Below are positions 3,400 through 59,389 of a DNA stretch of 59,389 nucleotides, piece after piece. The first letter of the stretch is position 1. The number at the start of each line of letters is the position of its first letter. The translations under genes were made by a program, and so were the position numbers. Source of the stretch: an uncultured archaeon. Its GTDB lineage: Archaea > EX4484-52 > JAADEF01. The DNA is taken from the NCBI GenBank assembly GCA_964407715.1, contig CAYOWP010000002.1, forward strand, positions 53,838-113,226, given 5' to 3'. A model generated the notes under the pieces. That model searched no databases. It was not told the DNA's origin and saw nothing but the letters and a program-made list of their open reading frames with translations.

Positions 3400-3816
3400 A
3401 TGAAAAAAAGATATTCTTTTTGTTTGATACCTGGATGCTTTCTTTGTATCCATCCTGGACATATATTTTTATTTGAAAAAGCAAAAGAAATGTGCGAATC
3501 TCTTATTGTAGTTTTGGCGCATGACAAAAAAATAAAAGAAAAGTACAATATCAAAGATAACACAATGAAAGATAGAAAAAAGATGTTAGAGGCAATAAAA
3601 TATATAGATCATGTGATAGAGGGTTATGAGAAAAAAGAGGATTTTTTAAAGGTGTTAGATTTATTTCCTTTTGATGCCATTATCTTCTGTAAGTCGCATG
3701 ACATACCAAAAGAAGTGTTAGATACCTTAAAAAATATCAAAAAAGATATAGATATAGTTGTTTTGGATTGTTATAAAAAAGAGATATTTTCTACAAGGAA
3801 GGTGTTGGACATATGA
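3400..3816 (+). CDS. cytidylyltransferase-fold nucleotidyltransferase (archaeal FAD synthase RibL / PPAT-like)
   Basis: 138-aa protein with the nucleotidyltransferase signature GxFxxxHPGH (PGCFLCIHPGHIFLF). Size and layout match archaeal RibL-like enzymes. Confidence 0.55.
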   Translation: MKKRYSFCLIPGCFLCIHPGHIFLFEKAKEMCESLIVVLAHDKKIKEKYNIKDNTMKDRKKMLEAIKYIDHVIEGYEKKEDFLKVLDLFPFDAIIFCKSHDIPKEVLDTLKNIKKDIDIVVLDCYKKEIFSTRKVLDI

Positions 3817-4628
3817 GAAGAATCATAATTTTGAAATATGGTGAATTATGGTTAAAATCCAGAAGAACAAAAAAGAGATTTATTAAGTTATTAAGAAGAC
3901 ATCTAACATCACTATTTCCAAAAGATATTTTTTATTTTAAAAGGGATAGAGTAGAGGTTATAACAAACAATTTTGATCTCATGAGATTTAAGTATATTCC
4001 TGGCATTGAGTATGCACATCTATGCTATAAAACATCATCTATTATAGATGACATCATAGCGGTGGTTGAAAAAATTTTAAATGAAGAAAAACTGAAGTTT
4101 GAATCTTTTGCTGTGAGATGCAAGAGAACAGGAAAGCACAATTTTAGAAGCAAAGATATTGAGGAGATAGTAGGCAATTTAATAAAAGAGAAAACACATG
4201 CAAAAGTGGATTTAAATAATCCTGGTTTCACTTTGAAAATAGATATAATAAGCAACGAAACTTATATCTCTCTTTCCTCCCTTGAATGTATTGGTGGATT
4301 ACCATATGCTAGTGAGGGAATATGCAAGGTTAACAATCCAAATAACCTCTTCTTAATCATAGAATTATTAAAAAGAGGGATGTATATTGAAAACCTACCC
4401 GATAAATTGAGAAAATACTTTCCTAAGATAAAGGAAGAGCTTTATCAAAGGCAGGATTTCAAGGTTATAGTTTATGATTATACCTTTGAGGACATAAATG
4501 AGATTCTGAATATCAAAAAAGAAAGAGATTTGGTTTTATTTCCACTCATTGTATATTCTAAAGATGAGATAGAAAGAAAAAATGAAATAATAACAAAAGA
4601 TATTAAAAATCTTTTTAAATCTCTATGA
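3813..4628 (+). CDS. THUMP-domain RNA-binding protein (ThiI/Tan1-like N-terminal architecture, no PP-loop)
   Basis: N-terminal ILKYGELWLKS matches the KxGEIxLKG start of THUMP/ThiI-type proteins. It overlaps the upstream gene by 4 nt (ATGA), consistent with an operon. Confidence 0.45.
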   Translation: MRRIIILKYGELWLKSRRTKKRFIKLLRRHLTSLFPKDIFYFKRDRVEVITNNFDLMRFKYIPGIEYAHLCYKTSSIIDDIIAVVEKILNEEKLKFESFAVRCKRTGKHNFRSKDIEEIVGNLIKEKTHAKVDLNNPGFTLKIDIISNETYISLSSLECIGGLPYASEGICKVNNPNNLFLIIELLKRGMYIENLPDKLRKYFPKIKEELYQRQDFKVIVYDYTFEDINEILNIKKERDLVLFPLIVYSKDEIERKNEIITKDIKNLFKSL

Positions 4629-17686: not shown

Positions 17687-17742
17687 AATTTTTTATTTCT
17701 TTGATTTAAAATTTATAAAATTTGCTCCTTAGAAAGGTTAGC

Positions 17743-17990
17743 GGCATTGTCCAATAATTCTCTATTTGTTAAGCGGAAAAGTATCCTCTTAAAAAACCGC
17801 ATCAGAGCAGCAAACCTTGTAGAGCTAATGCGATCGTAAGAGCAAATTTTTAGTTAACAACTTCTCATCAAAAATTATTGGACAATTTGTTAACAGGAAG
17901 CATAGCCATATTCAAAGGCTTAACTGTTCTCATGCGCTTCTTTAAGATGTTATTTTTCTGCTTAACAATAAGGAATTATTGGACAATGCC
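17743..17990. repeat. dispersed repeat family, locus A: one complete TIR-bounded unit (17743-17886) abutting a second core plus TIR (17887-17990)
   Basis: GGCATTGTCCAATAAT at 17743, internal ATTATTGGACAAT at 17874, ATTATTGGACAATGCC ending 17990. Core sequences (GTTAACAGGAAGCATAGCCATATTCAAAGGCTTAACTGTTCTCATGCGCTTCTTTAAGATG...CTGCTTAAC) match the other loci. Confidence 0.8.
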
Positions 17991-18242
17991 AAGGATAGCT
18001 GATTATGTGTTATTTTTAAACACGATAACTTTAAAAAATTAACGGTAAGATACCGAAAAATTTAAATATAGATTTGAATTATAATCATTTAAGTGGTGAA
18101 AATGAAAACTTTAAATTTTAAAAAGAACATTTATGATATTTTTATCAGAGATAAGAATATAAAAAATAAGCATAATTTATCTTTTTCTTGTACAAGGTAT
18201 TATATAGTAGTAGCTATGAAGGTGCTTCCATTCTGGATATAA

Positions 18243-18303
18243 TGCGCATCACATACAGCATTTGTATTATATCATGATATTTTTTTGCTGTATGTGATGC
18301 GTA
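18243..18303. repeat. long near-perfect hairpin (16-18 bp stem, ~25-nt AT loop) in the large intergenic region
   Basis: TGCGCATCACATACAGCA ... TGCTGTATGTGATGCGTA are reverse complements of each other. Confidence 0.7.
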
Positions 18304-18357
18304 TAGGAGGACAATCTTATCATAATAATTATAATTTTTAATTCCGAGCCCAACCCT

Positions 18358-18379
18358 CCCGTAAAATGCGGGTTTTTTT
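18358..18379 (+). terminator. short hairpin followed by a T7 tract (intrinsic-terminator-like)
   Basis: CCCGTAAAATGCGGG followed by TTTTTTT. Archaeal termination uses oligo-T tracts. Function not established. Confidence 0.3.
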
Positions 18380-18489
18380 GTTTTCCTTTACTTTTATATT
18401 ATTTTTCATCATGATTATCACCACCTAAATGTTGGGAAAATAACATTTAAATATGTATGTATGAAATAATATTATATAAGAGGATTCAT

Positions 18490-18655
18490 GATGGGCTTTA
18501 TAGGTGAGTTAAGGGCATGAGTAGGGATGAGGAGCAGAGGCTCTGACCTAAATTGTAGAGGAGATTAATAATAACCGGCAGGCAGACACATAACCCCTGC
18601 CAGGGTAGGTGGCAAGTAAGAGCATCTGTGCGTGTCTGCCTGTCCGGGCCCAATC
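18490..18655 (+). ncRNA. GC-rich structured RNA candidate (unclassified; weak SRP-RNA-helix-8-like words)
   Basis: A 15-bp helix CCGGCAGGCAGACACA (18575-18590) / TGTGTCTGCCTG-CCGG (about 18630-18646, one bulge) encloses GCCAGGGTAGGTGGCAAGTAAGAGCA. The outer closure is GATGGGC / GCCCAATC, then an oligo-T. GC content is far above the surroundings and there is no plausible ORF. Confidence 0.35.
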
Positions 18656-22044: not shown

Positions 22045-22092
22045 TATACATCATAGAAATTTAAAATAATTCAAATTGTTTTTGAAAAACCA

Positions 22093-22227
22093 GCATTGTC
22101 CAATAATATATTTTTGAAAAATTTGGTTAACGGGAAACATAGCCCTATTCAAAGGGTTAACTGCTCTCATGTGCTTCTTTAAGAGGTTATGGTTCCGCTT
22201 AACAAATAGAGAATTATTGGACAATGC
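22093..22227. repeat. dispersed repeat family, locus B: single complete 135-bp unit with 15/16-bp terminal inverted repeats
   Basis: GCATTGTCCAATAAT (22093-22107) ... core GGTTAACGGGAAACATAGCCCTATTCAAAGGGTTAACTGCTCTCATGTGCTTCTTTAAGAGGTTATGGTTCCGCTTAAC ... ATTATTGGACAATGC (22213-22227). It lies in the divergent rtcB/gyrB intergenic region. Confidence 0.8.
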
Positions 22228-22266
22228 CTGAAAACCCTTTTAAAATCCTGTCTCTTTTAATAATCT

Positions 22267-24192
22267 ATGGTTGAAAAAAAGGATTCTAAGACAAGATATA
22301 CTGCTCAAGATATAAAGGTGCTTGAAGGTTTAGAAGCTGTAAGAAAGAGACCTGCAATGTACATAGGGGATACTTCATTTAGAGGATTTCACCATCTCTT
22401 ATGGGAAGTCATTGATAATAGCATAGATGAAGCCTTAGCAGGTTATGCAACAAAGATAGAAGTTATACTTCATAATGATGGTTCAGCAGAGGTTAGAGAT
22501 AATGGTAGGGGAATTCCTGTAGATATTCATCCATCATATAATATCTCTGCCCTTGAATTGGTATTAACAAAACTTCATGCTGGTGGAAAATTTGATACAA
22601 AAGCATATAAGGTTTCTGGAGGTTTGCATGGGGTTGGGATAAGTGTTGTAAATGCTCTTAGCGAGTATTTGGATGTTAAAATAAAAAGAGATGGCAAAAT
22701 ATGGCATATGAGATTTAAAAAAGGAGAAAAAGAGAAGGATTTAGAGATAATTGGAGAAACAAAGGAGATAGGAACTATTATAAGGTTTAAGCCAGATAAA
22801 GATATATTTAAAAATTTGGAGTTTGATTATAAATACATAAAAGGCCGAGCAAAGGAACTTGCATATCTTAATAAAAATCTTCAGATTACATTAGAGGATA
22901 GAAGAACAGGAAAAAAGGAGACTTTTGTATATAATGAAGGAATTGTGCAATATTTGGATGAGTTGGTAAAATATAAACAGAAGGTTATAGAGAGGCCAAT
23001 ATATTTTAGCGAGCGCCAAGAAGGGGCAGAGGTTGAGATAGCTTTTTTATATGTTCTTGAGGATTATAACATAATAAGAGGATATGTAAATAATATTCAT
23101 ACAATTGAAGGAGGCACGCACATAACTGGTTTTCTCCAAGCATTAACAAAGACAATAAAATCTTATATCAATCATCTGAAAATAAAGACAAAATATGAGA
23201 TAGAGGGAGATGATATAAAGGAAGGCTTGGTAGCCATAATTTCTTTAAAACTTCCTCAACCAGAGTTTGAAGGACAAACTAAGACAAAGTTGGGAAGTAG
23301 AGAAGGAAGAACCATAGTTTATAATGCAACATCAAAGCATTTGGAGGAATACTTTGATAGGCATAATGATGATTTGAAAAAGATCATTGAGAGAGTATTG
23401 AAGGCTGCTGAGGCAAGAATAGCAGCAAAAAAGGCAAGGGAACTTGTTAAAAGAAAATCTGCATTAGAATCGTTTGATCTTCCAGGTAAGCTCTCTGATT
23501 GTTCAACAAAAGATAAAGAAAAGGCAGAATTGTTCATTGTTGAGGGAGAGAGCGCAGGTGGTTCTGCAAAATTGGCAAGAGATAGAAATTTTCAAGCAGT
23601 TTTACCTTTAAAGGGTAAAATAATAAATGTAGAGAAAAACACTATGTTAAAAGTACTGAAGAATGAGGAAATAAGGACATTGATTTCAGCAATAGGTACC
23701 GGGATAGGTGAAAACTTTGATATTAATAAACTTCGATATGGAAAGATAATAATAATGACAGATGCTGATGTTGATGGGGCACATATAAGAACTTTAATAT
23801 TAACATTTTTCTATAGATATCTACCAAAGCTAATAGAAGAGGGGAGAGTATATTTGGCATTACCTCCTTTATATAAAATAAAAACATCAAACAACGAGAT
23901 TTATTATGTTTATAGCGATAAGGAAAAGGAGGAGCTAATTAAAAGATTAGAGAAGAGCAATAAAAAGATTTCAGAGGTTCAGAGATATAAGGGTCTTGGA
24001 GAAATGAATCCAGAGCAATTGTGGGAAACCACAATGGATCCAAAAAGAAGGAAACTTAAAAGAGTGGAGATTGAGGATGCCATAGAAGCTGAAAAGATGT
24101 TTACAATATTAATGGGAGAAAAGGTTGAGCCAAGGAAAGAGTTTATCTTAGAAAATGCGCCATTGCTCAAAATAGAAGAATTGGATATTTAA
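22267..24192 (+). CDS. gyrB: DNA gyrase subunit B
   Basis: GHKL ATPase blocks (GLHGVGISVVNALS), Toprim (LFIVEGESAGGSA), C-terminal YKGLGEMNPEQLWETTMDP. No gyrA follows in this window. Confidence 0.9.
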   Translation: MVEKKDSKTRYTAQDIKVLEGLEAVRKRPAMYIGDTSFRGFHHLLWEVIDNSIDEALAGYATKIEVILHNDGSAEVRDNGRGIPVDIHPSYNISALELVLTKLHAGGKFDTKAYKVSGGLHGVGISVVNALSEYLDVKIKRDGKIWHMRFKKGEKEKDLEIIGETKEIGTIIRFKPDKDIFKNLEFDYKYIKGRAKELAYLNKNLQITLEDRRTGKKETFVYNEGIVQYLDELVKYKQKVIERPIYFSERQEGAEVEIAFLYVLEDYNIIRGYVNNIHTIEGGTHITGFLQALTKTIKSYINHLKIKTKYEIEGDDIKEGLVAIISLKLPQPEFEGQTKTKLGSREGRTIVYNATSKHLEEYFDRHNDDLKKIIERVLKAAEARIAAKKARELVKRKSALESFDLPGKLSDCSTKDKEKAELFIVEGESAGGSAKLARDRNFQAVLPLKGKIINVEKNTMLKVLKNEEIRTLISAIGTGIGENFDINKLRYGKIIIMTDADVDGAHIRTLILTFFYRYLPKLIEEGRVYLALPPLYKIKTSNNEIYYVYSDKEKEELIKRLEKSNKKISEVQRYKGLGEMNPEQLWETTMDPKRRKLKRVEIEDAIEAEKMFTILMGEKVEPRKEFILENAPLLKIEELDI

Positions 24193-24212
24193 TATCATAA
24201 AGGGATGATAAA

Positions 24213-25193
24213 ATGAAATATCAAAATATACTTGTTACAGGTAGTGCAGGATTTATAGGTTTTCATTTATGTAAAAAGCTTTTGGAGGAGTTTTCTCATA
24301 TTAATGTTTATGGTTTGGATAACATGAATAACTATTATTCTCCTCTATTAAAACAAAAAAGAAACGAGATATTGAAAAAGGACAAGAGATATTTTTTCTT
24401 TAAGATAGATTTTTCTGATTGGAATGCTTTAATAGATAGCTTTAAAGATAAAGAGATTGACTTGATTATTCATCTTGGTGCTCAAGCAGGGGTAAGGTAT
24501 TCCTTAGAGAACCCATTTGCTTATGAGACATCCAATGTTAGAGGCACTTTAAATATCTTTGAATTGGCAAGGAAAAAAGATATCTCAAAGGTAATTTATG
24601 CCTCATCATCATCTGTATATGGAGCAAATAGCAAGATTCCTTTTAGCGAGCAGGATCCTGTAGAGAAGCCAATTTCTTTATATGCTGTAACAAAAAGAGC
24701 AGATGAGCTTATGGCATATACATATCATCATCTGTATGATATTGAGATGATTGGTCTACGTTTTTTTACTGTCTATGGGGAATATGGAAGACCTGATATG
24801 GCATATTGGAAATTCGCAAAAAAAATAATGAATAATGAGCCTATCGAAATATACAATTATGGAAATATGATGAGAGACTTTACATATATAGAAGATGCAA
24901 TAAAAGGCATTTTGCTATCTATAGAGAAATCATTTGATTATGAAATTTTCAATATTGGAAATGATAACCCAATTAAATTGGAATATATGATTTCTTTGTT
25001 AGAGAAATACTTGGGAAGAAAGGCAATAAAAAATTATTTACCAATGCAACCTGGAGAAGTAGAGAAAACGTGGGCTGATCTCACTAAATCAAGAAAGATG
25101 CTTGGATATAATCCAGAAACATCTATTGAAGAGGGTCTAAAAAGATTCTCTAAGTGGTTTTTGGATAATTGGAACTGGCTAAAAGATATCTAA
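24213..25193 (+). CDS. NAD-dependent nucleotide-sugar epimerase/dehydratase (SDR family)
   Basis: GSAGFIGFHL Rossmann motif, catalytic YAVTK (YxxxK). 326 aa, typical UDP-sugar 4-epimerase size. Confidence 0.7.
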   Translation: MKYQNILVTGSAGFIGFHLCKKLLEEFSHINVYGLDNMNNYYSPLLKQKRNEILKKDKRYFFFKIDFSDWNALIDSFKDKEIDLIIHLGAQAGVRYSLENPFAYETSNVRGTLNIFELARKKDISKVIYASSSSVYGANSKIPFSEQDPVEKPISLYAVTKRADELMAYTYHHLYDIEMIGLRFFTVYGEYGRPDMAYWKFAKKIMNNEPIEIYNYGNMMRDFTYIEDAIKGILLSIEKSFDYEIFNIGNDNPIKLEYMISLLEKYLGRKAIKNYLPMQPGEVEKTWADLTKSRKMLGYNPETSIEEGLKRFSKWFLDNWNWLKDI

Positions 25194-25213
25194 ATGTTCC
25201 TTGGGTGTATAAG

Positions 25214-27100
25214 GTGTGCGGCATAAATGGCATTGTAAAAAGAGGAAAAAAGATATCTCAGCATGAGATTATATCAATGAATAAAGCAATAAAACATCGA
25301 GGCCCAGATGATGAAGGAATTTTCATTAATTCTTTGAATAAATTTGGAATTGGATTTGGACATGTAAGATTATCAATTTTGGATTTAAGTGAGAAAGGAC
25401 ATCAGCCAATGGGATATAGTATAGAGAATGACAAAATTATCTATAAGGATAAAGAATTAGAGAAAGCGGATATAATAATAGTGCACAATGGAGAAGTTTA
25501 TAATTATCTTGAATTAGCTGAGAAGTATAATCTTAATAGAGAAACAAATACAGATACAGAGGTTATCTTAAAGTTATATTGTCTTAAAGGTATTGATTTT
25601 GTGAGGGAGCTTAATGGAATGTGGGCTTTCTGCATATATGATAAAAGAACATCCAAAATATTTTGCTCAAGAGATAGAGTTGGAAAAAAGCCGTTTTATT
25701 ATCTTATCAATGATAAGGAATTCGTATTTTCTTCTGAGTTAAAGGGAATATTGAGCATAAGAAACATTAATAAAAAAGAAAATATTTCAAAGGAGGCTGT
25801 AGAATTGTATTTCTCTTTAGGTTTTATTCCTTCTCCTTATACAATCTATAAGAACATATTTAAATTGCCTGCCTCACATATCTTGATCTTTGATATTAAT
25901 AAGTGGAAGATTTCATTAAGAAGATATTGGAAACTTCCAAAATATGCTCCTTCTTATGAGAACAAAGAAGCGCTTAAAAGAAAATTTTTGTCATTGTTGG
26001 AGGATGCTGTAAGGATAAGGCTGAGGTCAGAGGTTCCAATAGGTTGTTTTTTGAGCAGTGGATTGGATAGTTCTGTGGTTACTTATTTTATGAAAAAATT
26101 CGTAGGCAAGTCAAAATTACATTCCTTCTCTGTAGGATTTGAAGGAAAATATGATGAATCTCCTCATATAAAAAAGATAGTTAAGGTTTTTGATACTATT
26201 CATCATCACATATACTTTAATAAAAGGGATTTCGATAGTGTTTTAGATATAATCCCATATGTGTTTGATGAACCATATGGTGATCATTCTATTTTCCCTA
26301 CTTATAAGATATCTGAATTTGCTAAAAAAGAAGTTGGTGTGGTGTTATCTGGAGATGGAGGTGATGAAATACTTGGCGGATATGAGATTTACGTCTATGC
26401 CAAAATCATTGATATATTAAGGAAACTTCCTTTCTTTTTACGTAAAATACTTGCGAGAATTCCTATGAAAAATAAAAGCGAGATTATATATAGGATTGGT
26501 GAGGCATTTAGATTGTCTCTTTTACCTTCTGAAAAAATATGGTCTGAGGCATATGCAGATATAATGTATAAACCTGAGATATATAAAAAATGGACAGAAA
26601 AAAGGATGAGGGAGGCACTTAAACTTGGAGGTTCCTTAGATGAGAGCATGAGAATCTTTGATTTGCTTTATAGAACTTTGGGAGATAACTATCTAACAAA
26701 GATGGATAGAGCATCAATGTATCATTCTTTAGAGGTTAGATGTCCTTTTTTGGATTATAGATTGATTGAATTTTGTCAGAATATTCCTTCTGAATTGAGA
26801 GTAGGAATCTTTAAGACAAAAAAATTTATGCGTGATGCTCTAAGTGGAATCTTGCCAAAAGAGATTATAAAAAAGAAGAAGCGTGGATTCACACCACCAA
26901 TTGATAAGTGGATTGTTGATGAAAAATATATAAAGGAGATAAAAAAGAAAGATAAAATTCTAAAGGAAATCTCTGAGGATTTATATAGATTTTATAGGGA
27001 AAAAGTCTATCCTAATGCAAAAGATATCTTATATCATAGAATTTATCTTATAAGGTTGTATATATTCATAAAATGGTGGGAGAAATGGATAAGAGATTAA
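25214..27100 (+). CDS. asnB: asparagine synthetase (glutamine-hydrolysing), class II amidotransferase
   Basis: In-frame GTG at 25214 gives the N-terminus (M)CGINGIV, with the mandatory Cys2 nucleophile. Synthetase-domain PP-loop SGGLDSS. The track ORF starts at an upstream ATG (25169), which would bury the Cys. Confidence 0.8.
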   Translation: MCGINGIVKRGKKISQHEIISMNKAIKHRGPDDEGIFINSLNKFGIGFGHVRLSILDLSEKGHQPMGYSIENDKIIYKDKELEKADIIIVHNGEVYNYLELAEKYNLNRETNTDTEVILKLYCLKGIDFVRELNGMWAFCIYDKRTSKIFCSRDRVGKKPFYYLINDKEFVFSSELKGILSIRNINKKENISKEAVELYFSLGFIPSPYTIYKNIFKLPASHILIFDINKWKISLRRYWKLPKYAPSYENKEALKRKFLSLLEDAVRIRLRSEVPIGCFLSSGLDSSVVTYFMKKFVGKSKLHSFSVGFEGKYDESPHIKKIVKVFDTIHHHIYFNKRDFDSVLDIIPYVFDEPYGDHSIFPTYKISEFAKKEVGVVLSGDGGDEILGGYEIYVYAKIIDILRKLPFFLRKILARIPMKNKSEIIYRIGEAFRLSLLPSEKIWSEAYADIMYKPEIYKKWTEKRMREALKLGGSLDESMRIFDLLYRTLGDNYLTKMDRASMYHSLEVRCPFLDYRLIEFCQNIPSELRVGIFKTKKFMRDALSGILPKEIIKKKKRGFTPPIDKWIVDEKYIKEIKKKDKILKEISEDLYRFYREKVYPNAKDILYHRIYLIRLYIFIKWWEKWIRD

Positions 27101-27121
27101 AAGTTTTCTACATCGCATTTT

Positions 27122-28210
27122 CTATCTTGTAATTTCATAAGATTTTATTTCCTCAAACAATTTCCTTGCCTTTTTATTCTTCTCAAAATGCTCTCTTATA
27201 GGTGCTATCATCTCATTCAAATATTTTGCAAGAGTATCCTTTAAATCTAATGGGTGAATTTCTCCTTTAATATATCTTGATTCCAACTCATCATATGAAA
27301 GCACCTCTAAGTTTCCTCCATATTTTGCTGGTCTCTCTATAATAACTCTATCATATCTTCTGAAAACAATTTCTTTAAAGTATTGAAGAATAGGATTATC
27401 ATTAGCCTCTTTTTGTGGACAATAAGCTCCTCTTAATTTTCTTTTTATTTCATCATAAGAATCATGAACAAATATTGCAGTATCTGGCTTTGATTTGCTC
27501 ATTTTTGAGGTGATAATAACATCTTTTCTTAAATCCTCATCCATATGCTGTGGCTTTATAGGTCCTTTTAATCCCATAAGGAGATTATGATGCACAGCAA
27601 TAGGCTTTTTCCATTTTAATTTTTCTGCTATCTCTCTGGCAAGCACATTGACTTTTCTTTGATCCAAACCAAGCTGACAGATATCCACATCCAAATGAAA
27701 TATATCAGCACATTGCATGCTTGGATAGAAAATGATAGAGGTCGAGTTTTCCATGCTCTCAACTCTACCAGCAATTGTTAATGCTCTCAAAGTTCTCCTT
27801 AAAGTATGATTCTGCGCAATCAAAATGACCTTTCTCCAATACTCTTCATCTGAGATAAAATCCTTATGCCAGCATACCTCTACCTTACTAAAATCAACAC
27901 CTGCTGCCTTCCAAACCTCTATAAAATATTCTCCTACTTTTCTTATTTTTTCTATGTCTCCTCCAAATTTCAGATTTATCCATGCGAATGTATCAGCTAA
28001 AAGAAGTTTGAATTTAATGCCTGTCTTCAGCAATTCATTTATTAAAAGAGGTCTATATATACCAAAAGGTAAATGTGCAATACCTGAGGGCTCAAATCCA
28101 TCATAAGCTACAGGATGTGTTTTAGTTTCAAACAGCTCTTTTAGATCTTTTTCAGTGATTATTTCATACGATATGCTCTTAAATATAGATATCTTTTCCT
28201 CAATATCCAT
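27122..28210 (-). CDS. tyrS: tyrosine--tRNA ligase (archaeal type)
   Basis: Class I motifs (YDGFEPSG...HLPFG region, KMSKS) and a C-terminal block (KRKLRGAYCP...SYDELESRYIKGEIHPLDLKD) closely resembling archaeal TyrRS. Start placed at internal MDIEEK (28210). The track ORF extends to 28492 through a hydrophobic low-complexity stretch overlapping the next gene. Confidence 0.75.
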   Translation of the reverse strand: MDIEEKISIFKSISYEIITEKDLKELFETKTHPVAYDGFEPSGIAHLPFGIYRPLLINELLKTGIKFKLLLADTFAWINLKFGGDIEKIRKVGEYFIEVWKAAGVDFSKVEVCWHKDFISDEEYWRKVILIAQNHTLRRTLRALTIAGRVESMENSTSIIFYPSMQCADIFHLDVDICQLGLDQRKVNVLAREIAEKLKWKKPIAVHHNLLMGLKGPIKPQHMDEDLRKDVIITSKMSKSKPDTAIFVHDSYDEIKRKLRGAYCPQKEANDNPILQYFKEIVFRRYDRVIIERPAKYGGNLEVLSYDELESRYIKGEIHPLDLKDTLAKYLNEMIAPIREHFEKNKKARKLFEEIKSYEITR

Positions 28211-28265
28211 AAAAATTCTAAAAGAAATTAAATTTAAAAAATAATCACATAAAAATACATAAGAT

Positions 28266-29183
28266 ATGGTACTATCCTCTAAAGAGATTGAGTTTTTAAA
28301 CTCAAGAATAAAAATAAGGAGAGATGATTTTTTAGAGATAACATCACGTATATCTCCAAAAAGGAGGGAAAGACATATATTCAGATATGCTGAAAAAGGA
28401 GAAAAAGGAATATGCATATTCTGCAAGGAAAATTTGAGGAGATATGTAAAAATTGAAATTAATGGAAAGATATATAGAAGAGGAGAAAGCATAATTTTTT
28501 ATAATAAATATCCTTTTGCATCACACCATCTTGTGGGATTGCTATGTGAAAAACATAACTTAGAAATGAGTGAGTTCTCTAAGGAGATGTTTGAAAACCT
28601 ATTGTTATTGACAAGAGAATACTATAAAGATGAAGGTCTCGACAATTTTTATGTATATTTTAACATGAACTTTTCTCCAGAGGCAGGGGCATCACAACAA
28701 CACCCTCATGTGCAAATATATATAGAAGATGCAAAAAGCACGCTTCATAGAACAATTGAAAAGAACAAAAATCTTTTTGCTATGTGGTTAGAGCAACATA
28801 AAGAAAAAGGATTACTTATAAACAAGAAAGATATCAAATATATATTTAACTATGCTCCTCTGGGCAATAATAACATAACCATACACCTTCCTTTCTCATC
28901 TTCCAAAGAGATGTTAAGGCTGAAAAGCATAAAGTTATTAAGTAATGGAATTATAAATATTATTCATCTCTATGATACTCTAAATGAGAGATGTTTTAAT
29001 TTTAGCATATTTCCAACAAAGATTGGCACATTTGGATTTTTTATAACTCGAAATCAAGCGCGAGAAAGATATGTCAATGATAGAGGATTCATGGAAACAA
29101 TATTGCGTGAAATTGTGGTTAACACAGACCCTAAGGAGATATCAAAAGCCTTCAATTCTTTTTTAAGAGAACACGAGGCTTAG
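28266..29183 (+). CDS. GalT-like HIT-superfamily nucleotidyltransferase/phosphorylase (Gal-1-P uridylyltransferase family)
   Basis: His-phi-His-phi-Gln motif (QQHPHVQIY) characteristic of the GalT branch of the HIT superfamily, plus an N-terminal Cys pair (CIFC) like the GalT zinc site. Confidence 0.5.
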   Translation: MVLSSKEIEFLNSRIKIRRDDFLEITSRISPKRRERHIFRYAEKGEKGICIFCKENLRRYVKIEINGKIYRRGESIIFYNKYPFASHHLVGLLCEKHNLEMSEFSKEMFENLLLLTREYYKDEGLDNFYVYFNMNFSPEAGASQQHPHVQIYIEDAKSTLHRTIEKNKNLFAMWLEQHKEKGLLINKKDIKYIFNYAPLGNNNITIHLPFSSSKEMLRLKSIKLLSNGIINIIHLYDTLNERCFNFSIFPTKIGTFGFFITRNQARERYVNDRGFMETILREIVVNTDPKEISKAFNSFLREHEA

Positions 29184-29199
29184 TTCAACAATTATACAC

Positions 29200-29446
29200 T
29201 TCTTTAAAAGGCTACTTTTTAACAAGGAATTATACCCCATCAATGAGCAGCAGTAGAGCAGCTAACCTTAAAGATGACATGCTACAAAACCTATAGTAAT
29301 AGCGATTTCTTCCAGTTAACAAAATCATTTAAAATGGTTAACAGGAAGCATAGCCTTATTCAAAGGGTTAAATCGCTATAAGTGCTATTTGCGTGTTAAG
29401 TTTCCGCTTAACAAAATTTTGTTAATAAGGGATTATTGGACAACGC
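29200..29446. repeat. dispersed repeat family, locus C: extended copy ending in a TIR variant (ATTATTGGACAACGCC)
   Basis: 29213-29443 is the near-exact reverse complement of part of locus F (48250-48470). It includes the core GGTTAACAGGAAGCATAGCCTTATTCAAAGGGTTAAATCGCTATAAGTGCTATTTGCGTGTTAAGTTTCCGCTTAAC. Confidence 0.75.
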
Positions 29447-29502
29447 CAGAACACAAGAATTAAACGCAAAAAATATATCCTATAATGAGAAAAATATAAT
29501 AT

Positions 29503-33297: not shown

Positions 33298-33378
33298 TTG
33301 TTAACTGGAAACATAACCTTTCAAAGAAGCGCATGAGAGCAGTTAACCCTTTGAATAGGGCTATGCTTTTCCTTTAAC
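33298..33378. repeat. dispersed repeat family, locus D: core-only copy in reverse orientation, no TIRs
   Basis: Reverse complement reads GGTTAAAGGAAAAGCATAGCCCTATTCAAAGGGTTAACTGCTCTCATGCGCTTCTTTGAAAGGTTATGTTTCCAGTTAACAA. Its two ~19-nt termini (GTTAACTGGAAACATAACC) form a perfect inverted repeat. Confidence 0.75.
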
Positions 33379-33431
33379 CAAATCTCTCAATTCTAAAATT
33401 ATATATGCCAGAAAACCTCATTTAATATATT

Positions 33432-43906: not shown

Positions 43907-44398
43907 TCACCTTTTTATAAATCTTGGAATTTGAAGAATTGGCGGTAAAGATAGAACTTCTGTTAAATACATGAATTTTGGAATTCCTCTTTTTATTATG
44001 GCATTGAGTATCTCTACTTCTTTTCCTTTTAAATTCCCCTCTTTTTTCCAATTTTTTTCCAAATCCCTTGCTTCTTTTTCATCTTTTGTCGCATACAAAA
44101 TATCGCCATTCATGCTCAATAATGCAACTTCATTATTATTTTGAATATATCTTATCATAAAAGAATATTTTATATTTAACGCAGATATCTTAATTTCTTT
44201 TTCCAATAATGAATTAATTATCTTTGTTTCTTTAACATCTTCTATTTTTGGATTGTGCTCTATTTTTACTTTTCCAATTATAGGTTTTTTAACCTCTCCT
44301 TTTATCTCCTTAATTGTTATTCCTACTATAGACATATTTTCACCCTTATAGAAAAATTTCATTATTAAATATTTAAAAGTTTTACTATAATGTAGCAT
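43907..44398 (-). CDS. hypothetical protein
   Basis: 163-aa ORF. The likely start is the internal MSIVGITIKE. No motifs. Confidence 0.3.
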   Translation of the reverse strand: MLHYSKTFKYLIMKFFYKGENMSIVGITIKEIKGEVKKPIIGKVKIEHNPKIEDVKETKIINSLLEKEIKISALNIKYSFMIRYIQNNNEVALLSMNGDILYATKDEKEARDLEKNWKKEGNLKGKEVEILNAIIKRGIPKFMYLTEVLSLPPILQIPRFIKR

Positions 44399-44900
44399 GC
44401 TAACTTTAAAGAGAGGTTAACTGCTTCAATGTGCTTCATTAAGAGCATATTTTTCCCTTAACCAATTTTTATTTAAAAAATTTTGGTTAAGGGAAAGCAT
44501 AACCCCTTCTCGAGGCATATCACAGCAGGTAATCTCTCCGAGCGTTTAGGAAGCAGCTAACCTTTCTTCAGGTTAGCATGCTGTAATATGGTCGCGAATA
44601 TGATATCATCCCGTTAACCATATTATTCAAAATTAAATAAAATTTGGTTAAGGGGAACTATGCCTTACATCTATACCTTCATTGCAGCAGTTAACCTGAA
44701 GAAAGGTTACCTGCTCAAATGTGTTTTTGAGATGGTATGTTTCCCCTTAACCATTTTTATTCAAAATAATTGGTTAACGAGCAGAAATCGCTTTTCTAAA
44801 GCATACTGTAGCATGATAATCTTCTTTTTAGGTTATCTGCTTCTAATGTGTTTTCTTGGTTATGTGTATTTTCCTTTAACAAAATTATTTAAAATGCGAG
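44395..44900. repeat. dispersed repeat family, locus E: ~500-bp tandem array of at least five degenerate core copies, no TIRs
   Basis: Successive units beginning GGTTAACTGCTTCAATGTGCTTCATTAAGAG..., TTGGTTAAGGGAAAGCATAACCCC..., AGCAGCTAACCTTTCTTCAGGTTAGCATGCTGTAATATGG...CCGTTAACC, TTGGTTAAGGGGAACTATGCC...GTTTCCCCTTAACC, TTGGTTAACGAGCAGAAATCGC...TTTCCTTTAAC. All are recognisably related to the cores at loci B, C and F. Confidence 0.7.
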
Positions 44901-48128: not shown

Positions 48129-48224
48129 CTACCTCCTTGACCTCTCCATATAGAATGTCACATGCTTATAATATATTATATATCCGAAAATATTTATATA
48201 TTTATCGGTTATCATTAGATTTTT

Positions 48225-48595
48225 GGCATTGTCCAATAATCCTCTATTAACAAAATTTTGTTAAGCGGAAACTTAACACGCAAATAGCACTTATAGCACT
48301 TAACCCTTTGAATAGGGCTATGCTTCTCGTTAACCATTTTAAATGATTTTGTTAATGGGAAGAAATCGCTATTACTACAGGTTTTGTAGCATGTTAACCT
48401 CATCTTTAAGGTTAGCTGCTTTACTGCTGCTCATTGACTGGGTATAATTCCTTGTTAAAAAGTAGCCTCTTAAAGAAGCGCATCAGAGCAGCAAATCTTA
48501 TAGAGCTAATGCAATTCAAAGGGTTAAACTGCTCTCATGCGCTTCTTTAAGAGGTTATATTTCCGCTTAACAATAGAGAATTATTGGACAATGCC
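48225..48595. repeat. dispersed repeat family, locus F: 371-bp composite bounded by perfect 16-bp TIRs, holding a reverse-orientation core, a long spacer shared with locus C, and a forward core
   Basis: GGCATTGTCCAATAAT at 48225 and ATTATTGGACAATGCC ending 48595. Internal 26-nt inverted repeat CCTCTTAAAGAAGCGCATCAGAGCAG / CTGCTCTCATGCGCTTCTTTAAGAGG. Confidence 0.8.
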
Positions 48596-48644
48596 TAGAT
48601 TTTTATAAGAAACTTTTAAAATACTTTATATATATCAAGAATTT

Positions 48645-57716: not shown

Positions 57717-59389
57717 ATGAGATATCTATTGTTCATCGCGATGCTTTTACTCATACTTTTCACATTACCTTTTTCCTATGCAGCCACCTCTCTCAACTCC
57801 TGCACCACAATCTCATCTCCAGGAGTTTACTATCTCACCTCTGACATCACTGACTCAAGCAGTACTTGCTTTACTATCTCCTCTTCTGACGTAATTTTGG
57901 ATTGCCAAGGACATGTGATTGATGGTACTCAAGCCTCTGGTAGTTATGGCATATATGCCAGTGGCTCCTTAAGCAACATCACCATAAGAAACTGCAAAAT
58001 CCAAGAGTTTTATTATGGAATTTACTTCTATAATGGTGTTCATGATAGCAAGATAGAGAATGTTGTGAGTAATAGCAACAATGGATATGGCATCCGGCTT
58101 AATGGCGGTTCCTCCAACACATTAACAAACATCACTACTGAGAATAACAATTGGGGTGGCATCCTTCTTGATTCCTCATCCTCCAACACCTTAACAAACA
58201 TCACTGCTAAGAATAATCACGACGACGGTATTCATCTCTATTCCTCTTCTTCCAACACCTTAACAAACATCACTGCCAATAATAACGGTGAGGATGGCAT
58301 TTATCTCTCTTCCTCTTCCTCCAACATAATAGCAAATTCCACAATAAAATACAATGCTCAATATGGTATTTATCTTACTTATTCAGATAACAACAACATC
58401 ACATCCACAACAATCACATTCAATTCTCAAGGTATTTACTTTAATGGCAACTCAGACAACAACATCTTCAAAAACAATACCATACTCAAAAACAAATTTA
58501 ATGATATAAGAATAACATCCAGTGATAATAACAATCTCTTTTATAACAATCTATTATCTACAGCTAAATATAAAATCTCAGATGAATCATCAACAACAAA
58601 ATGGAACTATACGAATATAGGAAATCACTGGCTAGATTATGATGCTGAACATGAAGGATGCTATGATACTAACAATGACAATATATGTGATGATCCTTAT
58701 GCTATCAATGATAAATATGATTACTATCCAATCTATACAGGAACACCTCAAAAAACATTTACTTGCTCATCATGTAGCGAGTGTACATCTATAATACAAA
58801 ACAATGCAACTCCCAATGATATAGTGCAATTAACTGTTGATATTATTGATTCCACCACATCTAAATGCATATATTTTGATCCTTATACATATCCAGAAAT
58901 AATATTTGATTGTCAAAACCATTTAATAGATGGAGATGACAATGTTGATTATGGAATTTATATTGATTATACTCAAGGCATTACAATCAAAAACTGTCAA
59001 TTAACAGATTGGGATTCTGCAAATATCTACTTAACCAATGTTAAATATAATACCTTAAAGAATATAATCACTAAAAGTAGTCCAGATCGTGGCATCTATC
59101 TCCGTTCCTCTTCCTTCAACACATTAACAAACATCACTGCTAAGAATAACAATTGGGATGGCATTTTTCTCTATTCCTCTTCCAACTATAACACATTAAC
59201 CAACATCACTGCCAATAATAATAACTGTGGCATCTGGCTTCATTCCTCTTCCAACTATAACACATTAACCAACATCACTGCCAATAATAACAATCGGGAT
59301 GGCATCTATCTCCTTTCCTCTTCCTCCAACACATTAACAAACATCACTGCCAATAGTAACTCTCGTTATGGCATCTATCTTGATTCCTC
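57717..59389 (+). CDS. secreted right-handed parallel beta-helix repeat protein (adhesin/NosD-pectate-lyase-like), 3'-truncated by window end
   Basis: ATG at 57717. Signal peptide MRYLLFIAMLLLILFTLPFSYA, then repeated 22-aa units (SSNTLTNITANNN-xDGIYL-SSS) typical of PbH1 beta-helix repeats. The frame stays open to the end of the window. Confidence 0.65.
   Translation, partial: MRYLLFIAMLLLILFTLPFSYAATSLNSCTTISSPGVYYLTSDITDSSSTCFTISSSDVILDCQGHVIDGTQASGSYGIYASGSLSNITIRNCKIQEFYYGIYFYNGVHDSKIENVVSNSNNGYGIRLNGGSSNTLTNITTENNNWGGILLDSSSSNTLTNITAKNNHDDGIHLYSSSSNTLTNITANNNGEDGIYLSSSSSNIIANSTIKYNAQYGIYLTYSDNNNITSTTITFNSQGIYFNGNSDNNIFKNNTILKNKFNDIRITSSDNNNLFYNNLLSTAKYKISDESSTTKWNYTNIGNHWLDYDAEHEGCYDTNNDNICDDPYAINDKYDYYPIYTGTPQKTFTCSSCSECTSIIQNNATPNDIVQLTVDIIDSTTSKCIYFDPYTYPEIIFDCQNHLIDGDDNVDYGIYIDYTQGITIKNCQLTDWDSANIYLTNVKYNTLKNIITKSSPDRGIYLRSSSFNTLTNITAKNNNWDGIFLYSSSNYNTLTNITANNNNCGIWLHSSSNYNTLTNITANNNNRDGIYLLSSSSNTLTNITANSNSRYGIYLDS
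58108..58330 (+). repeat. intragenic ~66-nt tandem DNA repeats (block 1) encoding beta-helix rungs
   Basis: Units CCTCCAACAC(A/C)TTAACAAACATCACTGC(T/C)AA(G/T)AATAA...GGCAT...ATCTC..TTCCTCTTC repeated ~3.5 times. Confidence 0.7.
59095..59389 (+). repeat. intragenic ~66-69-nt tandem DNA repeats (block 2), continuing past the window end
   Basis: At least 4.5 copies of TCCTCTTCC(AACTAT)AACACATTAAC(A/C)AACATCACTGCCAATAATAA...GGCATCT..CT. Confidence 0.7.

What the first reader, a model, noticed from the sequence alone, without database searches (positions are those of the whole stretch)
22093..22227. Unannotated dispersed repeat family: ~80-nt GTTAAC-bounded core with 16-bp terminal inverted repeats, six intergenic loci, no transposase
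The same sequence recurs in six intergenic regions: A 17743-17990, B 22093-22227, C ~29200-29446, D 33298-33378, E 44395-44900, F 48225-48595. Full copies are bounded by GGCATTGTCCAATAAT / ATTATTGGACAATGCC. The shared core is GGTTAAC-N-GGAARCATAGCCYTATTCAAAGGGTTAAMYGCTMTCATGYGCTTCTTTAAGAGGTTAT-NN-TTCCGCTTAAC. It starts and ends with GTTAAC and its arms are imperfectly inverted; they are perfect over 19 nt in copy D. Copies occur with TIRs (B), as a bare core (D), as tandem degenerate arrays (E) and as nested palindromic composites (A, F). No transposase-like ORF is in the window. This is the behaviour of a non-autonomous MITE-like element, or of a family of structured small RNA genes. Four of six loci sit between divergently transcribed genes (guaA/MBF1, rtcB/gyrB, hypothetical/KaiC, MC1/fen), so they could also supply promoters or regulator binding sites.
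Basis: seen in the sequence. Interest (0 to 1): 0.8.

Follow-up and report, generated by a model that had tools for sequence, protein, structure and literature searches.

The report
Small mobile DNA repeats in archaeon
The repeats are a family of miniature, gene-less transposons (MITEs) scattered between the housekeeping genes of a small DPANN-type archaeon; the family is real and well defined, but it is an ordinary kind of selfish DNA, not a new RNA or regulatory system.

Summary
The same sequence family fills six intergenic loci of the window and occurs nowhere else in it. The 16-nt end gives 7 hits against 0.11 expected.

Three loci (A, B, F) are complete elements of 248, 137 and 371 nt. 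Each is bounded by 16-24-nt terminal inverted repeats (GGCATTGTCCAATAAT...) and flanked by 9-bp target-site duplications (8/9, 8/9 and 9/9 matches). C is a one-ended copy of the F type, D is a solo core, and E is an array of 4 related units (one partial) with no terminal repeats.

A related metagenome (Ga0190367) holds many further copies. They have sharp boundaries, 9-bp duplications, one insertion nested in another copy's end, and two copies flanking a ParE toxin cassette.

The ends resemble those of IS5-family insertion sequences. IS903 has GGC ends and a 9-bp duplication. An exact element-type end lies beside a decayed IS5-family transposase gene in another metagenome. The exact autonomous partner was not found, and the window holds no transposase.

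The ~80-nt "core" is a shortened form of a ~107/135-nt modular palindromic unit. It shows no covariation, no strand bias and no Rfam match, so the small-RNA reading is not supported.

Verdict: a new member of a known kind. MITE-rich DPANN genomes are already documented. The arrays without terminal repeats remain unexplained.

The parts
17743..17990 (.). Copy A: complete 248-nt MITE. Layout: left terminal repeat, one unit in reverse orientation, an internal terminal-repeat-like stretch (17874-17889), the short core, then the right terminal repeat. Flanked by the 9-bp duplication AAGGTTAGC (17734-17742) / AAGGATAGC (17991-17999).
   Evidence: Eight further copies of this 250-nt type at unrelated sites align from GGC to GCC with unrelated flanks.
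22092..22228 (.). Copy B (the finding): complete 137-nt MITE. Layout: left end AGCATTGTCCAATAAT, an AT-rich linker, the 80-nt short core (22125-22204), then the right end ATTATTGGACAATGCC. Flanked by the duplication TGAAAAACC (22083-22091) / TGAAAACCC (22229-22237).
   Evidence: Same-type copies at L014:1041-1175 and L007:11930-12075.
29194..29447 (.). Copy C: one-ended, inverted copy of the F type, 92% identical to F 48225-48478. Only one terminal repeat is present (29424-29447). The other end is missing, right after the stop codon of ORF 28266-29183.
33298..33379 (-). Copy D: solo short core in reverse orientation, with no terminal repeats and no target duplication.
44391..44881 (.). Locus E: array of palindromic units without terminal repeats. 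The units are a partial one at 44391-44463, a 135-nt long-type unit at 44485-44619 (reverse orientation), a 107-nt unit at 44646-44752 and a 110-nt unit at 44772-44881. AT-rich linkers of about 20 nt separate them.
48225..48595 (.). Copy F: complete 371-nt MITE with several internal units, among them a short core in reverse orientation at the left and the right half of a core next to the right end. Flanked by a perfect 9-bp duplication TAGATTTTT (48216-48224 and 48596-48604).
   Evidence: A 390-nt counterpart lies at L015:11176-11565.

Best explanation
[quoted passage not shown] A complete element has two 16-24-nt terminal inverted repeats (GGCATTGTCCAATAAT[TCTCTATT]). These enclose one to several copies of a modular palindromic unit and no gene; one minimal 89-nt copy (L008) carries only part of a unit.

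I infer that a DDE transposase of the IS5 family, encoded elsewhere in the genome, binds the terminal repeats and excises the element. It reinserts the element at a 9-bp staggered cut in intergenic DNA, and repair of that cut produces the 9-bp direct duplication seen at the ends.

Size classes (89, ~137-154, ~250, ~300 and ~370-390 nt) arise by gain, loss, inversion and partial deletion of internal units. Two elements can also move the DNA between them as a composite.

Shown: the repeats, their ends, the duplications, sharp boundaries at many unrelated sites, a nested insertion, a composite carrying cargo, and the absence of any gene in the elements and of any transposase in the window.

Inferred: mobilisation in trans, the IS5-family identity of the transposase, and whether the family is still active. 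Copies differ by 10-16% and several duplications carry one mismatch, which suggests insertions that are not very recent.
For: Repeat family:
- The terminal repeat has 7 hits against 0.11 expected. The family is confined to six intergenic loci.

Target-site duplications:
- F has 9/9 matches; A and B have 8/9.
- Across 15 elements from the window and metagenome loci, 7 have at least 8/9 matches in strict register. None of 210 non-cognate flank pairs reaches that.
- Three more (L006, L017 and the L014 composite) match with a 1-nt offset.

Boundaries and mobility:
- Nine 250-nt copies at unrelated sites align from exactly GGC to GCC, and their flanks are unrelated.
- L010:5354-5655 is inserted inside the terminal repeat of another copy, with the duplication AGACAATGC.
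- Two MITEs flank a 510-nt ParE toxin cassette at two different loci. One of these composites is bounded by the direct repeat AGAACTGA.
- A short-read assembly of the same organism breaks inside copies B and C (its contig spans 22200-29269), as expected for multi-copy DNA.
- All 26 loci examined are intergenic.

Link to the IS5 family:
- An exact MITE-type end (28 of the first 30 nt identical to F's left end) lies 49 nt outside a decayed IS in L009. Its reconstructed transposase hits NCBIfam transpos_IS5_2 at E=6.5e-28.
- The ends of that IS clade, GGC(A/T)(T/C)TGTAGAA..CTCTATT, resemble the MITE end GGCATTGTCCAATAATTCTCTATT.
- IS903B, read from plasmid Rts1, has the end GGCTTTGTTGAATAAATC (14 of 18 identical to the MITE end) and a 9-bp duplication.
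Against: - No autonomous element with exactly the MITE ends was found. The IS5-family elements recovered (L009, L018, L019, L038-L040) differ at positions 9-16 of the end and show no clear target duplication.
- No transposase is present in the window or in about 130 kb of MITE-bearing metagenome loci.
- Loci D and E, and at least six arrays in Ga0190367, lack terminal repeats and duplications. Transposition by the terminal repeats therefore does not explain every member of the family.
- No empty-site versus filled-site comparison was possible, because no orthologous regions were recovered.
Confidence: 0.88

Rival explanations
1. The cores and units are genes for a family of structured small RNAs, each a long hairpin. 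The AT-rich linkers would supply archaeal TATA boxes and oligo-T terminators.
For: - Units fold far better than shuffled sequence (z about -4.5 to -5.5).
- Linkers contain TTTTTAAA-like and T-run motifs.
- Two architectures, about 107 and 135 nt, are shared between the window organism and the Ga0190367 organism.
Against: - No Rfam family matches at gathering score or at E<=1.
- No covariation: paired cells 86.7% against a shuffled 86.7%, and 2 compensatory pairs against 3.2.
- Middle arms pair no better with their own partner than with arms of other units (-6.9 against -8.5 kcal/mol, p=0.98).
- Both strands fold equally well, as expected for a DNA palindrome.
- Units occur in both orientations relative to neighbouring genes, and some arrays mix orientations.
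- Base stems decay freely: half of the units have a C.C or other mismatch at pair 7.
Confidence: 0.05
2. The palindromic units form a second, independent repeat family that the terminal-repeat element merely carries as a passenger. That family could be a separate MITE with 13-nt ends (GGTTAACGGGAAG), or satellite-like DNA amplified by unequal recombination. The arrays without terminal repeats would then not be MITE relics.
For: - At least seven arrays of 3-6 units have no terminal repeat on either side (window E; L004, L006, L011, L013, L015, L017).
- Units have well-defined ends and a conserved central palindrome.
- In L013 the linkers between units are nearly identical while the units are only about 70% alike. 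This points to tandem amplification or exchange.
- Long units look like short ones with a duplicated 29-nt module.
Against: - No target duplication flanks solo units or arrays.
- No transposase with such ends was found. The unit pattern gave 0 hits in viral contigs.
- There is a continuum of forms: arrays with two, one or degenerate terminal repeats (F; L015:11176-11565; L014:~3650-4011; L011:9152-9547; C). This fits decay or partial deletion of larger MITEs.
Confidence: 0.3
3. The repeats are host regulatory DNA: promoters or binding-site arrays for a regulator or chromatin protein. The motif GGTTARC occurs four times per unit in alternating orientation. The repeats would be kept at these sites because they control the divergent housekeeping genes next to them.
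For: - Four of the six window loci, and roughly 11 of 26 loci overall, lie between divergent genes.
- The GGTTARC motifs are the most conserved columns of the units.
Against: - Gene context is mixed, with tandem and convergent cases too.
- The neighbouring genes are functionally unrelated: guaA-type, rtcB, gyrB, kaiC, MC1, fen.
- For B, TATA-like boxes lie outside the element.
- Target duplications and the nested insertion show that the positions result from insertion, not from conserved placement.
- Divergent spacers are simply the largest tolerant targets in a compact genome (inference).
Confidence: 0.05
4. This is a REP/BIME-like system: the palindromic units would be moved as single-stranded hairpins by a Y1 (RAYT or IS200/IS605-type) transposase.
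For: - The units are imperfect palindromes clustered in mosaic arrays with linkers, superficially like bacterial BIMEs.
- IS200/IS605 is reported as the most widespread IS family in archaea (PMC13343696).
Against: - Units are 80-138 nt, whereas REPs are about 20-40 nt (own knowledge).
- Complete elements carry long terminal inverted repeats and 9-bp duplications, which Y1 transposition does not make (the Y1 mechanism is own knowledge).
- No Y1 transposase or TnpB domain was found among 53 window ORFs.
Confidence: 0.03

Closest known systems
Prokaryotic MITEs derived from IS5-family insertion sequences, such as IS903-group derivatives and MITEAba12 of Acinetobacter (PMC6382973)
   Same: Small size, no gene, terminal inverted repeats starting GGC, intergenic location and multiple copies. 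The 9-bp target-site duplication matches IS903 (IS903B checked here). The MITE end is 14 of 18 identical to the IS903 end.
   Different: The host is a DPANN-type archaeon. The exact autonomous partner is unknown. The nearest transposases recovered (P0001 clade) are only 28% identical to IS903B transposase over 173 aa and 30-36% identical to IS5-family transposases of haloarchaea and Methanomethylovorans. The interior is built from variable numbers of long palindromic units.
Modular mosaic repeats with variable internal modules: pneumococcal BOX elements (boxA-(boxB)n-boxC; own knowledge) and the Porphyromonas gingivalis MITE that contains a minisatellite (PMC4596501)
   Same: End modules are constant, and the number of internal repeat modules varies, which produces the size classes.
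   Different: The internal modules here are 107-135-nt palindromes with 13-nt inverted ends and a central palindrome. They also occur as arrays with no end modules at all.
[quoted passage not shown]
   Same: Two non-autonomous elements bracket cargo and appear to move as one unit. L014:1379-2295 and L005:2326-3334 carry a ParE toxin cassette.
   Different: The host is an archaeon, the cargo is a toxin-antitoxin pair, and the composite is seen only in the related metagenome, not in the window.
MITE-rich DPANN genomes reported in the 2024 MITE census (PMC11602168)
   Same: The census reports the highest archaeal MITE densities in Ca. Altiarchaeum hamiconexum (146 per Mb) and a Woesearchaeal genome (105 per Mb). 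The window holds six loci in 59 kb, about 100 per Mb.
   Different: I could not check whether this particular family is in that catalogue, because the supplementary sequences were not consulted.

Membership tests
MITE (prokaryotic non-autonomous DNA transposon) | Small size (tens to a few hundred bp) with no transposase gene inside | tested here: met
   Elements are 89-390 nt. None encodes a transposase; the only sizeable ORF crossing a repeat locus is a reading frame of 86 aa that runs through the units of the TIR-less array E.
MITE (prokaryotic non-autonomous DNA transposon) | Terminal inverted repeats | tested here: met
   The 16-nt core GGCATTGTCCAATAAT is present at both ends of A, B and F, and extends to about 24 nt.
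MITE (prokaryotic non-autonomous DNA transposon) | Target-site duplication of fixed length | tested here: met
   The duplication is 9 bp. F has 9/9 matches; A and B have 8/9. In all, 7 of 15 elements have at least 8/9 in strict register against 0 of 210 non-cognate pairs, and three more fit with a 1-nt offset.
MITE (prokaryotic non-autonomous DNA transposon) | Multiple copies at unrelated sites with sharp common boundaries | tested here: met
   Nine 250-nt copies align exactly from end to end with unrelated flanks. Further copies appear.
MITE (prokaryotic non-autonomous DNA transposon) | Ends shared with an autonomous IS that supplies the transposase | tested here: inconclusive
   An exact MITE-type end lies beside a decayed IS5-family IS in L009. 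However, that IS clade has related, not identical, ends. No partner was found in the window or the loci.
IS5 family, IS903 group (as source of the ends) | Ends start GGC and the target duplication is 9 bp | tested here: met
   The MITE ends start GGC and the duplication is 9 bp. IS903B in Rts1 has GGCTTTGTTGAATAAATC and the 9-bp duplication GACACAACG. That these features define the group is from my own knowledge of ISfinder.
IS5 family, IS903 group (as source of the ends) | A cognate IS903-group DDE transposase in the same genome | tested here: not met
   tblastn with IS903B transposase found nothing in the window or the MITE-bearing loci. The linked transposase clade (P0001) is IS5 family but distant from IS903B (28%). 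Only 59 kb of the genome was available.
Any described RNA family (Rfam 15) | A covariance-model match at or near the gathering score | tested here: not met
   No match on the repeats at gathering score or at E<=1.
Structured RNA gene (undescribed) | Compensatory base changes that keep the helices, and a strand preference | tested here: not met
   No excess of pairing or covariation over shuffles. Cognate arms pair no better than non-cognate arms. Folding is equal on both strands.
REP/BIME with RAYT | Short (about 20-40 nt) palindromes, no terminal inverted repeats or target duplication, and an associated Y1 transposase | tested here: not met
   Units are 80-138 nt. Complete elements have terminal repeats and 9-bp duplications. 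No Y1 or TnpB domain was found in the window ORFs.
CRISPR array | Short conserved direct repeats separated by unique spacers | tested here: not met
   In the arrays the linkers and unit ends are conserved and the interiors are related to each other. The 69-nt periodic repeat at the window end is coding sequence.

The most novel reading that the evidence does not exclude
The ~107/135-nt palindromic units are more than MITE filling. In this reading they are a distinct element with a role of its own. They form arrays, mostly head-to-tail, without terminal repeats, and carry four alternating GGTTARC motifs per unit with conserved AT-rich linkers. Both unit architectures are shared between two organisms. 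The role could be a binding array for a chromatin or partition protein, a second kind of non-autonomous element that amplifies in tandem, or processed RNAs. The IS5-type MITE would then have captured and spread these units.
Probability: 0.15. Interest if true: 0.55.

Novelty: new member of a known kind. Interest (0 to 1): 0.3.

Why it matters
DPANN archaea have very small, compact genomes, yet this 59-kb stretch of housekeeping genes carries six insertions, about 2.7% of its DNA. That fits the reported high MITE load of some DPANN genomes (PMC11602168).

The family is practically useful in three ways:
- It explains why short-read assemblies of this lineage break: the Logan contig ends inside copies B and C.
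- It gives a marker for linking contigs of one population.
- Together with the ParE cassette bracketed by two copies, it shows one way small cargo can move in these genomes.

It opens no long-standing question. The only unexplained part is the origin of the unit arrays that lack terminal repeats.

Tried and rejected
- Genome-contig scan with the end pattern (one representative genome per species): only 2 chance hits, in a Bacteroides and a WOR-3 genome. The organism is not among the representatives.
- Viral-contig scans: the 16-mer gave 18 single hits with no extended similarity, and there was no transposase at those loci, so these are chance. The unit pattern gave 0 hits.
- F against annotated plasmids and phages: no match.
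- L012 and L016 from the metagenome scan turned out to be chance matches in virus-like contigs, one of them inside a coding region.
- Search for the partner IS: five intact homologues of the L009 transposase were fetched (L018, L019, L038-L040). All have GGCTCTGTAGAA-type ends, not the MITE end, and none shows a clear duplication.
- Extending beyond the window to find a transposase: look-ups returned only sequence identical to the window or short Logan contigs.
- Orthologous empty sites: no window protein has an orthologous region in the metagenome loci.
- RNAalifold on 16 units predicted only the apical stem, with no covariation.
- I first took the 69-nt periodic repeats at 58047-59389 for a CRISPR array. 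Reading the sequence showed coding 23-aa repeats.
- The idea that the long hairpin is maintained by compensatory change was rejected.

Full report

Yes. The 16-nt end GGCATTGTCCAATAAT occurs 7 times in the window at up to 2 mismatches, against 0.11 expected. The 5' half of the core occurs 5 times, against 0 expected.

A sensitive self-BLAST of the six named regions, and later an nhmmer profile of the repeat unit, find the family in exactly those six intergenic loci and nowhere else in the 59 kb.

- The arms of copy D are not perfect over 19 nt. The longest perfect inverted repeat is 8 nt.
- C has only one terminal repeat. It is an inverted, truncated copy of F (92% over 255 nt).
- E is made of longer units than the 80-nt core.

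**2. Host and surroundings**

The window has about 31% GC. It carries housekeeping genes: RNase P RNA and tRNAs, and genes with Pfam hits for GMP synthase, RtcB, GyrB, KaiC, MC1, FEN-1, SRP54, NrdD and others.

The closest named RtcB homologues are DPANN archaea: Nanohaloarchaeota, Woesearchaeota, Aenigmarchaeota and Nanopusillaceae, at 57-69% identity. None of the 53 ORFs tested has a transposase domain.

The window is part of a 113-kb contig. A short-read assembly of the same organism gives a 7,070-nt contig that starts and ends inside copies B and C (window 22200-29269). That is how multi-copy repeats behave in assembly.

**3. Copies elsewhere**

The species-representative genome collection gave only two chance hits. 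The metagenome collection gave 14 loci, most from one sample, Ga0190367. These loci carry dozens of copies.

The copies fall into discrete classes bounded by both ends: 89 nt, 135-154 nt (B type), about 250 nt (A type, at least 9 copies), about 300 nt and 371-390 nt (F type).

**4. Evidence for transposition**

- *Target-site duplications.* Nine-base direct repeats abut the ends: F TAGATTTTT (9/9), A AAGGTTAGC/AAGGATAGC and B TGAAAAACC/TGAAAACCC (8/9 each). Metagenome copies add AGACAATGC (9/9) and further 8/9 cases; ATGATTTTT (L006) and AAGTTTGCA (L017) are perfect 9-mers but sit 1 nt off register on one side. In strict register, 7 of 15 elements have at least 8/9 matches, and none of 210 non-cognate flank pairs does. 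Three more (L006, L017, the L014 composite) fit with a 1-nt offset.
- *Sharp boundaries.* An alignment of nine A-type copies with flanks shows similarity starting exactly at GGC and ending exactly at GCC.
- *Nested insertion.* L010:5354-5655 sits inside the terminal repeat of another copy, and the host repeat is duplicated over 9 bp.
- *Composite with cargo.* In L014 and L005 two copies bracket a 510-nt segment that encodes a small ORF and a ParE-family toxin (Pfam E about 1e-12). The whole structure recurs at two different sites. In L014 it is bounded by the direct repeat AGAACTGA.

Together these features define a MITE family.

**5. Which transposase?**

One metagenome locus (L009) has an exact MITE-type end; 28 of its first 30 nt are identical to F's left end. 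It lies 49 nt outside a decayed insertion sequence of about 970 bp. The stitched pseudo-protein of that IS hits NCBIfam transpos_IS5_2 (E=6.5e-28, below the curated cut-off because of decay) and, weakly, Pfam DDE_Tnp_1.

Intact homologues of about 300 aa are common in uncultured archaea, including Micrarchaeota and Marsarchaeota. Six copies of this IS clade have ends GGC(A/T)(T/C)TGTAGAA..CTCTATT. These are related to the MITE end GGCATTGTCCAATAATTCTCTATT but not identical, and the copies have no evident duplication.

I also checked IS903B on plasmid Rts1. Its end is GGCTTTGTTGAATAAATC (14 of 18 identical to the MITE end) and it makes a 9-bp duplication. Its transposase is only 28% identical to the P0001 clade over 173 aa.

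The ends and the duplication length therefore point to an IS5-family DDE transposase. The exact partner was not recovered. This step is inference.

**6. What the core is**

The 80-nt core is a shortened form of a larger unit. The full unit is about 107 nt:
- 13-nt inverted ends, GGTTAACGGGAAG / CTTCCCSTTAACC;
- a central palindrome, GCAGCTAACC-N7-GGTTAGCTGC;
- two non-complementary middle arms.

A 135-nt variant carries an extra 29-nt module. The core of B and D keeps the 5' arm and the whole 3' half, but lacks the 5' strand of the central palindrome and the loop.

Units sit inside the MITEs in either orientation. They also form arrays of 3-6 units with no terminal repeats, separated by conserved AT-rich linkers of about 20 nt. 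These arrays are mostly head-to-tail, though some mix orientations. Window E is one such array, and at least six more occur in Ga0190367. Intermediate forms also exist, with one or degenerate terminal repeats (C, L011:9152-9547, L014:~3650-4011).

I cannot tell whether the arrays are decayed or partly deleted MITEs, tandem amplifications of MITE interiors, or an independent repeat that the MITE captured. No duplication flanks them.

**7. The RNA and regulatory readings**

- No Rfam family matches at gathering score or at E<=1.
- On 16 aligned units the two conserved helices show no more pairing or covariation than column shuffles do: 86.7% against 86.7% paired, and 2 against 3.2 compensatory pairs.
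- The variable arms pair no better with their own partner than with arms of other units (p=0.98).
- Both strands fold equally well.

These results fit DNA palindromes that decay neutrally. They do not fit RNAs under selection for structure.

For B, TATA-like boxes for rtcB and gyrB lie between the element and each start codon. Across 26 loci the flanking gene orientation is mixed. The excess of divergent spacers is what one expects of tolerant targets in a compact genome.

**8. Comparison with what is known**

The family meets the defining features of a prokaryotic MITE. It works like IS5/IS903-type derivatives: GGC ends and a 9-bp duplication. Its variable number of internal modules recalls pneumococcal BOX elements (own knowledge) and the minisatellite-bearing MITE of Porphyromonas gingivalis (PMC4596501). 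MITE-bounded composites are known in bacteria (PMC11602168, PMC4133298).

A 2024 census already reports that DPANN genomes, Ca. Altiarchaeum and a Woesearchaeon, have the highest MITE densities among archaea: 146 and 105 per Mb (PMC11602168). The window's roughly 100 loci per Mb is in that range.

The sequence itself matches nothing in annotated plasmids, phages, viral contigs or species-representative genomes.

**9. Verdict**

This is a real, cleanly defined MITE family: a new member of a known kind. Interest is modest (0.3). The one open point is the nature of the unit arrays that lack terminal repeats.

Noticed in passing
L014:1379-2295 and L005:2326-3334 (Ga0190367 contigs): Two MITE copies bracket a 510-nt cassette that encodes a 62-63-aa ORF and an 85-aa ParE-family toxin (Pfam PF05016, E about 1e-12). 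The same composite occurs at two sites at 78% identity. In L014 it is bounded by the direct repeat AGAACTGA. It looks like a MITE-bounded composite transposon carrying a toxin-antitoxin pair.
   Followed up: partly
L010:5339-5664: One MITE copy is inserted inside the terminal inverted repeat of another copy. The host repeat ATTATTAGACAATGCC is split, and its last 9 nt but one (AGACAATGC) are duplicated on both sides.
   Followed up: yes
L009:4033-4080 and L018:80-128: At two different loci a MITE-type end lies just outside the left end of an IS5-family IS of the GGCTCTGTAGAA type. In L009 the end is exact; in L018 it is degenerate. The distances are 49 nt and about 118 nt, and no matching outer right end is present. 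Either these IS insert next to such ends, or the two are remnants of a larger element.
   Followed up: partly
window 57718-59389: The 69-nt periodic repeats near the window end (58047-59389) are coding. They are 23-aa repeats (...SSSNTLTNITA.NN..DGI.L...) in an ORF that runs off the window, reminiscent of parallel beta-helix surface proteins. They are not a CRISPR array. Both long assemblies end near here.
   Followed up: partly
window 17991-18627: An unusually long non-coding stretch (about 640 nt) lies between copy A and the next ORF. It contains a perfect inverted repeat of about 16 nt (GCGCATCACATACAGCA ... TGCTGTATGTGATGCG, near 18244-18303), a G+C-rich hairpin followed by a T run near 18347-18380, and a G+C-rich segment at 18500-18640. 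No Rfam match was found at E<=1.
   Followed up: no
L013:5357-5720: Within this array the two 20-nt linkers between units are nearly identical (AAATTTTTATTTTTAAATCT / ...TCA), while the units they separate are only about 70% alike. This is unexpected if the array arose by simple tandem duplication followed by uniform decay.
   Followed up: no
window 44396-44398 / 44391-44463: The annotated start codon of ORF 43907-44398 (minus strand, no Pfam hit) lies inside the first, partial repeat unit of array E. Either the true start is further downstream, or the insertion reshaped the 5' end of the gene.
   Followed up: no
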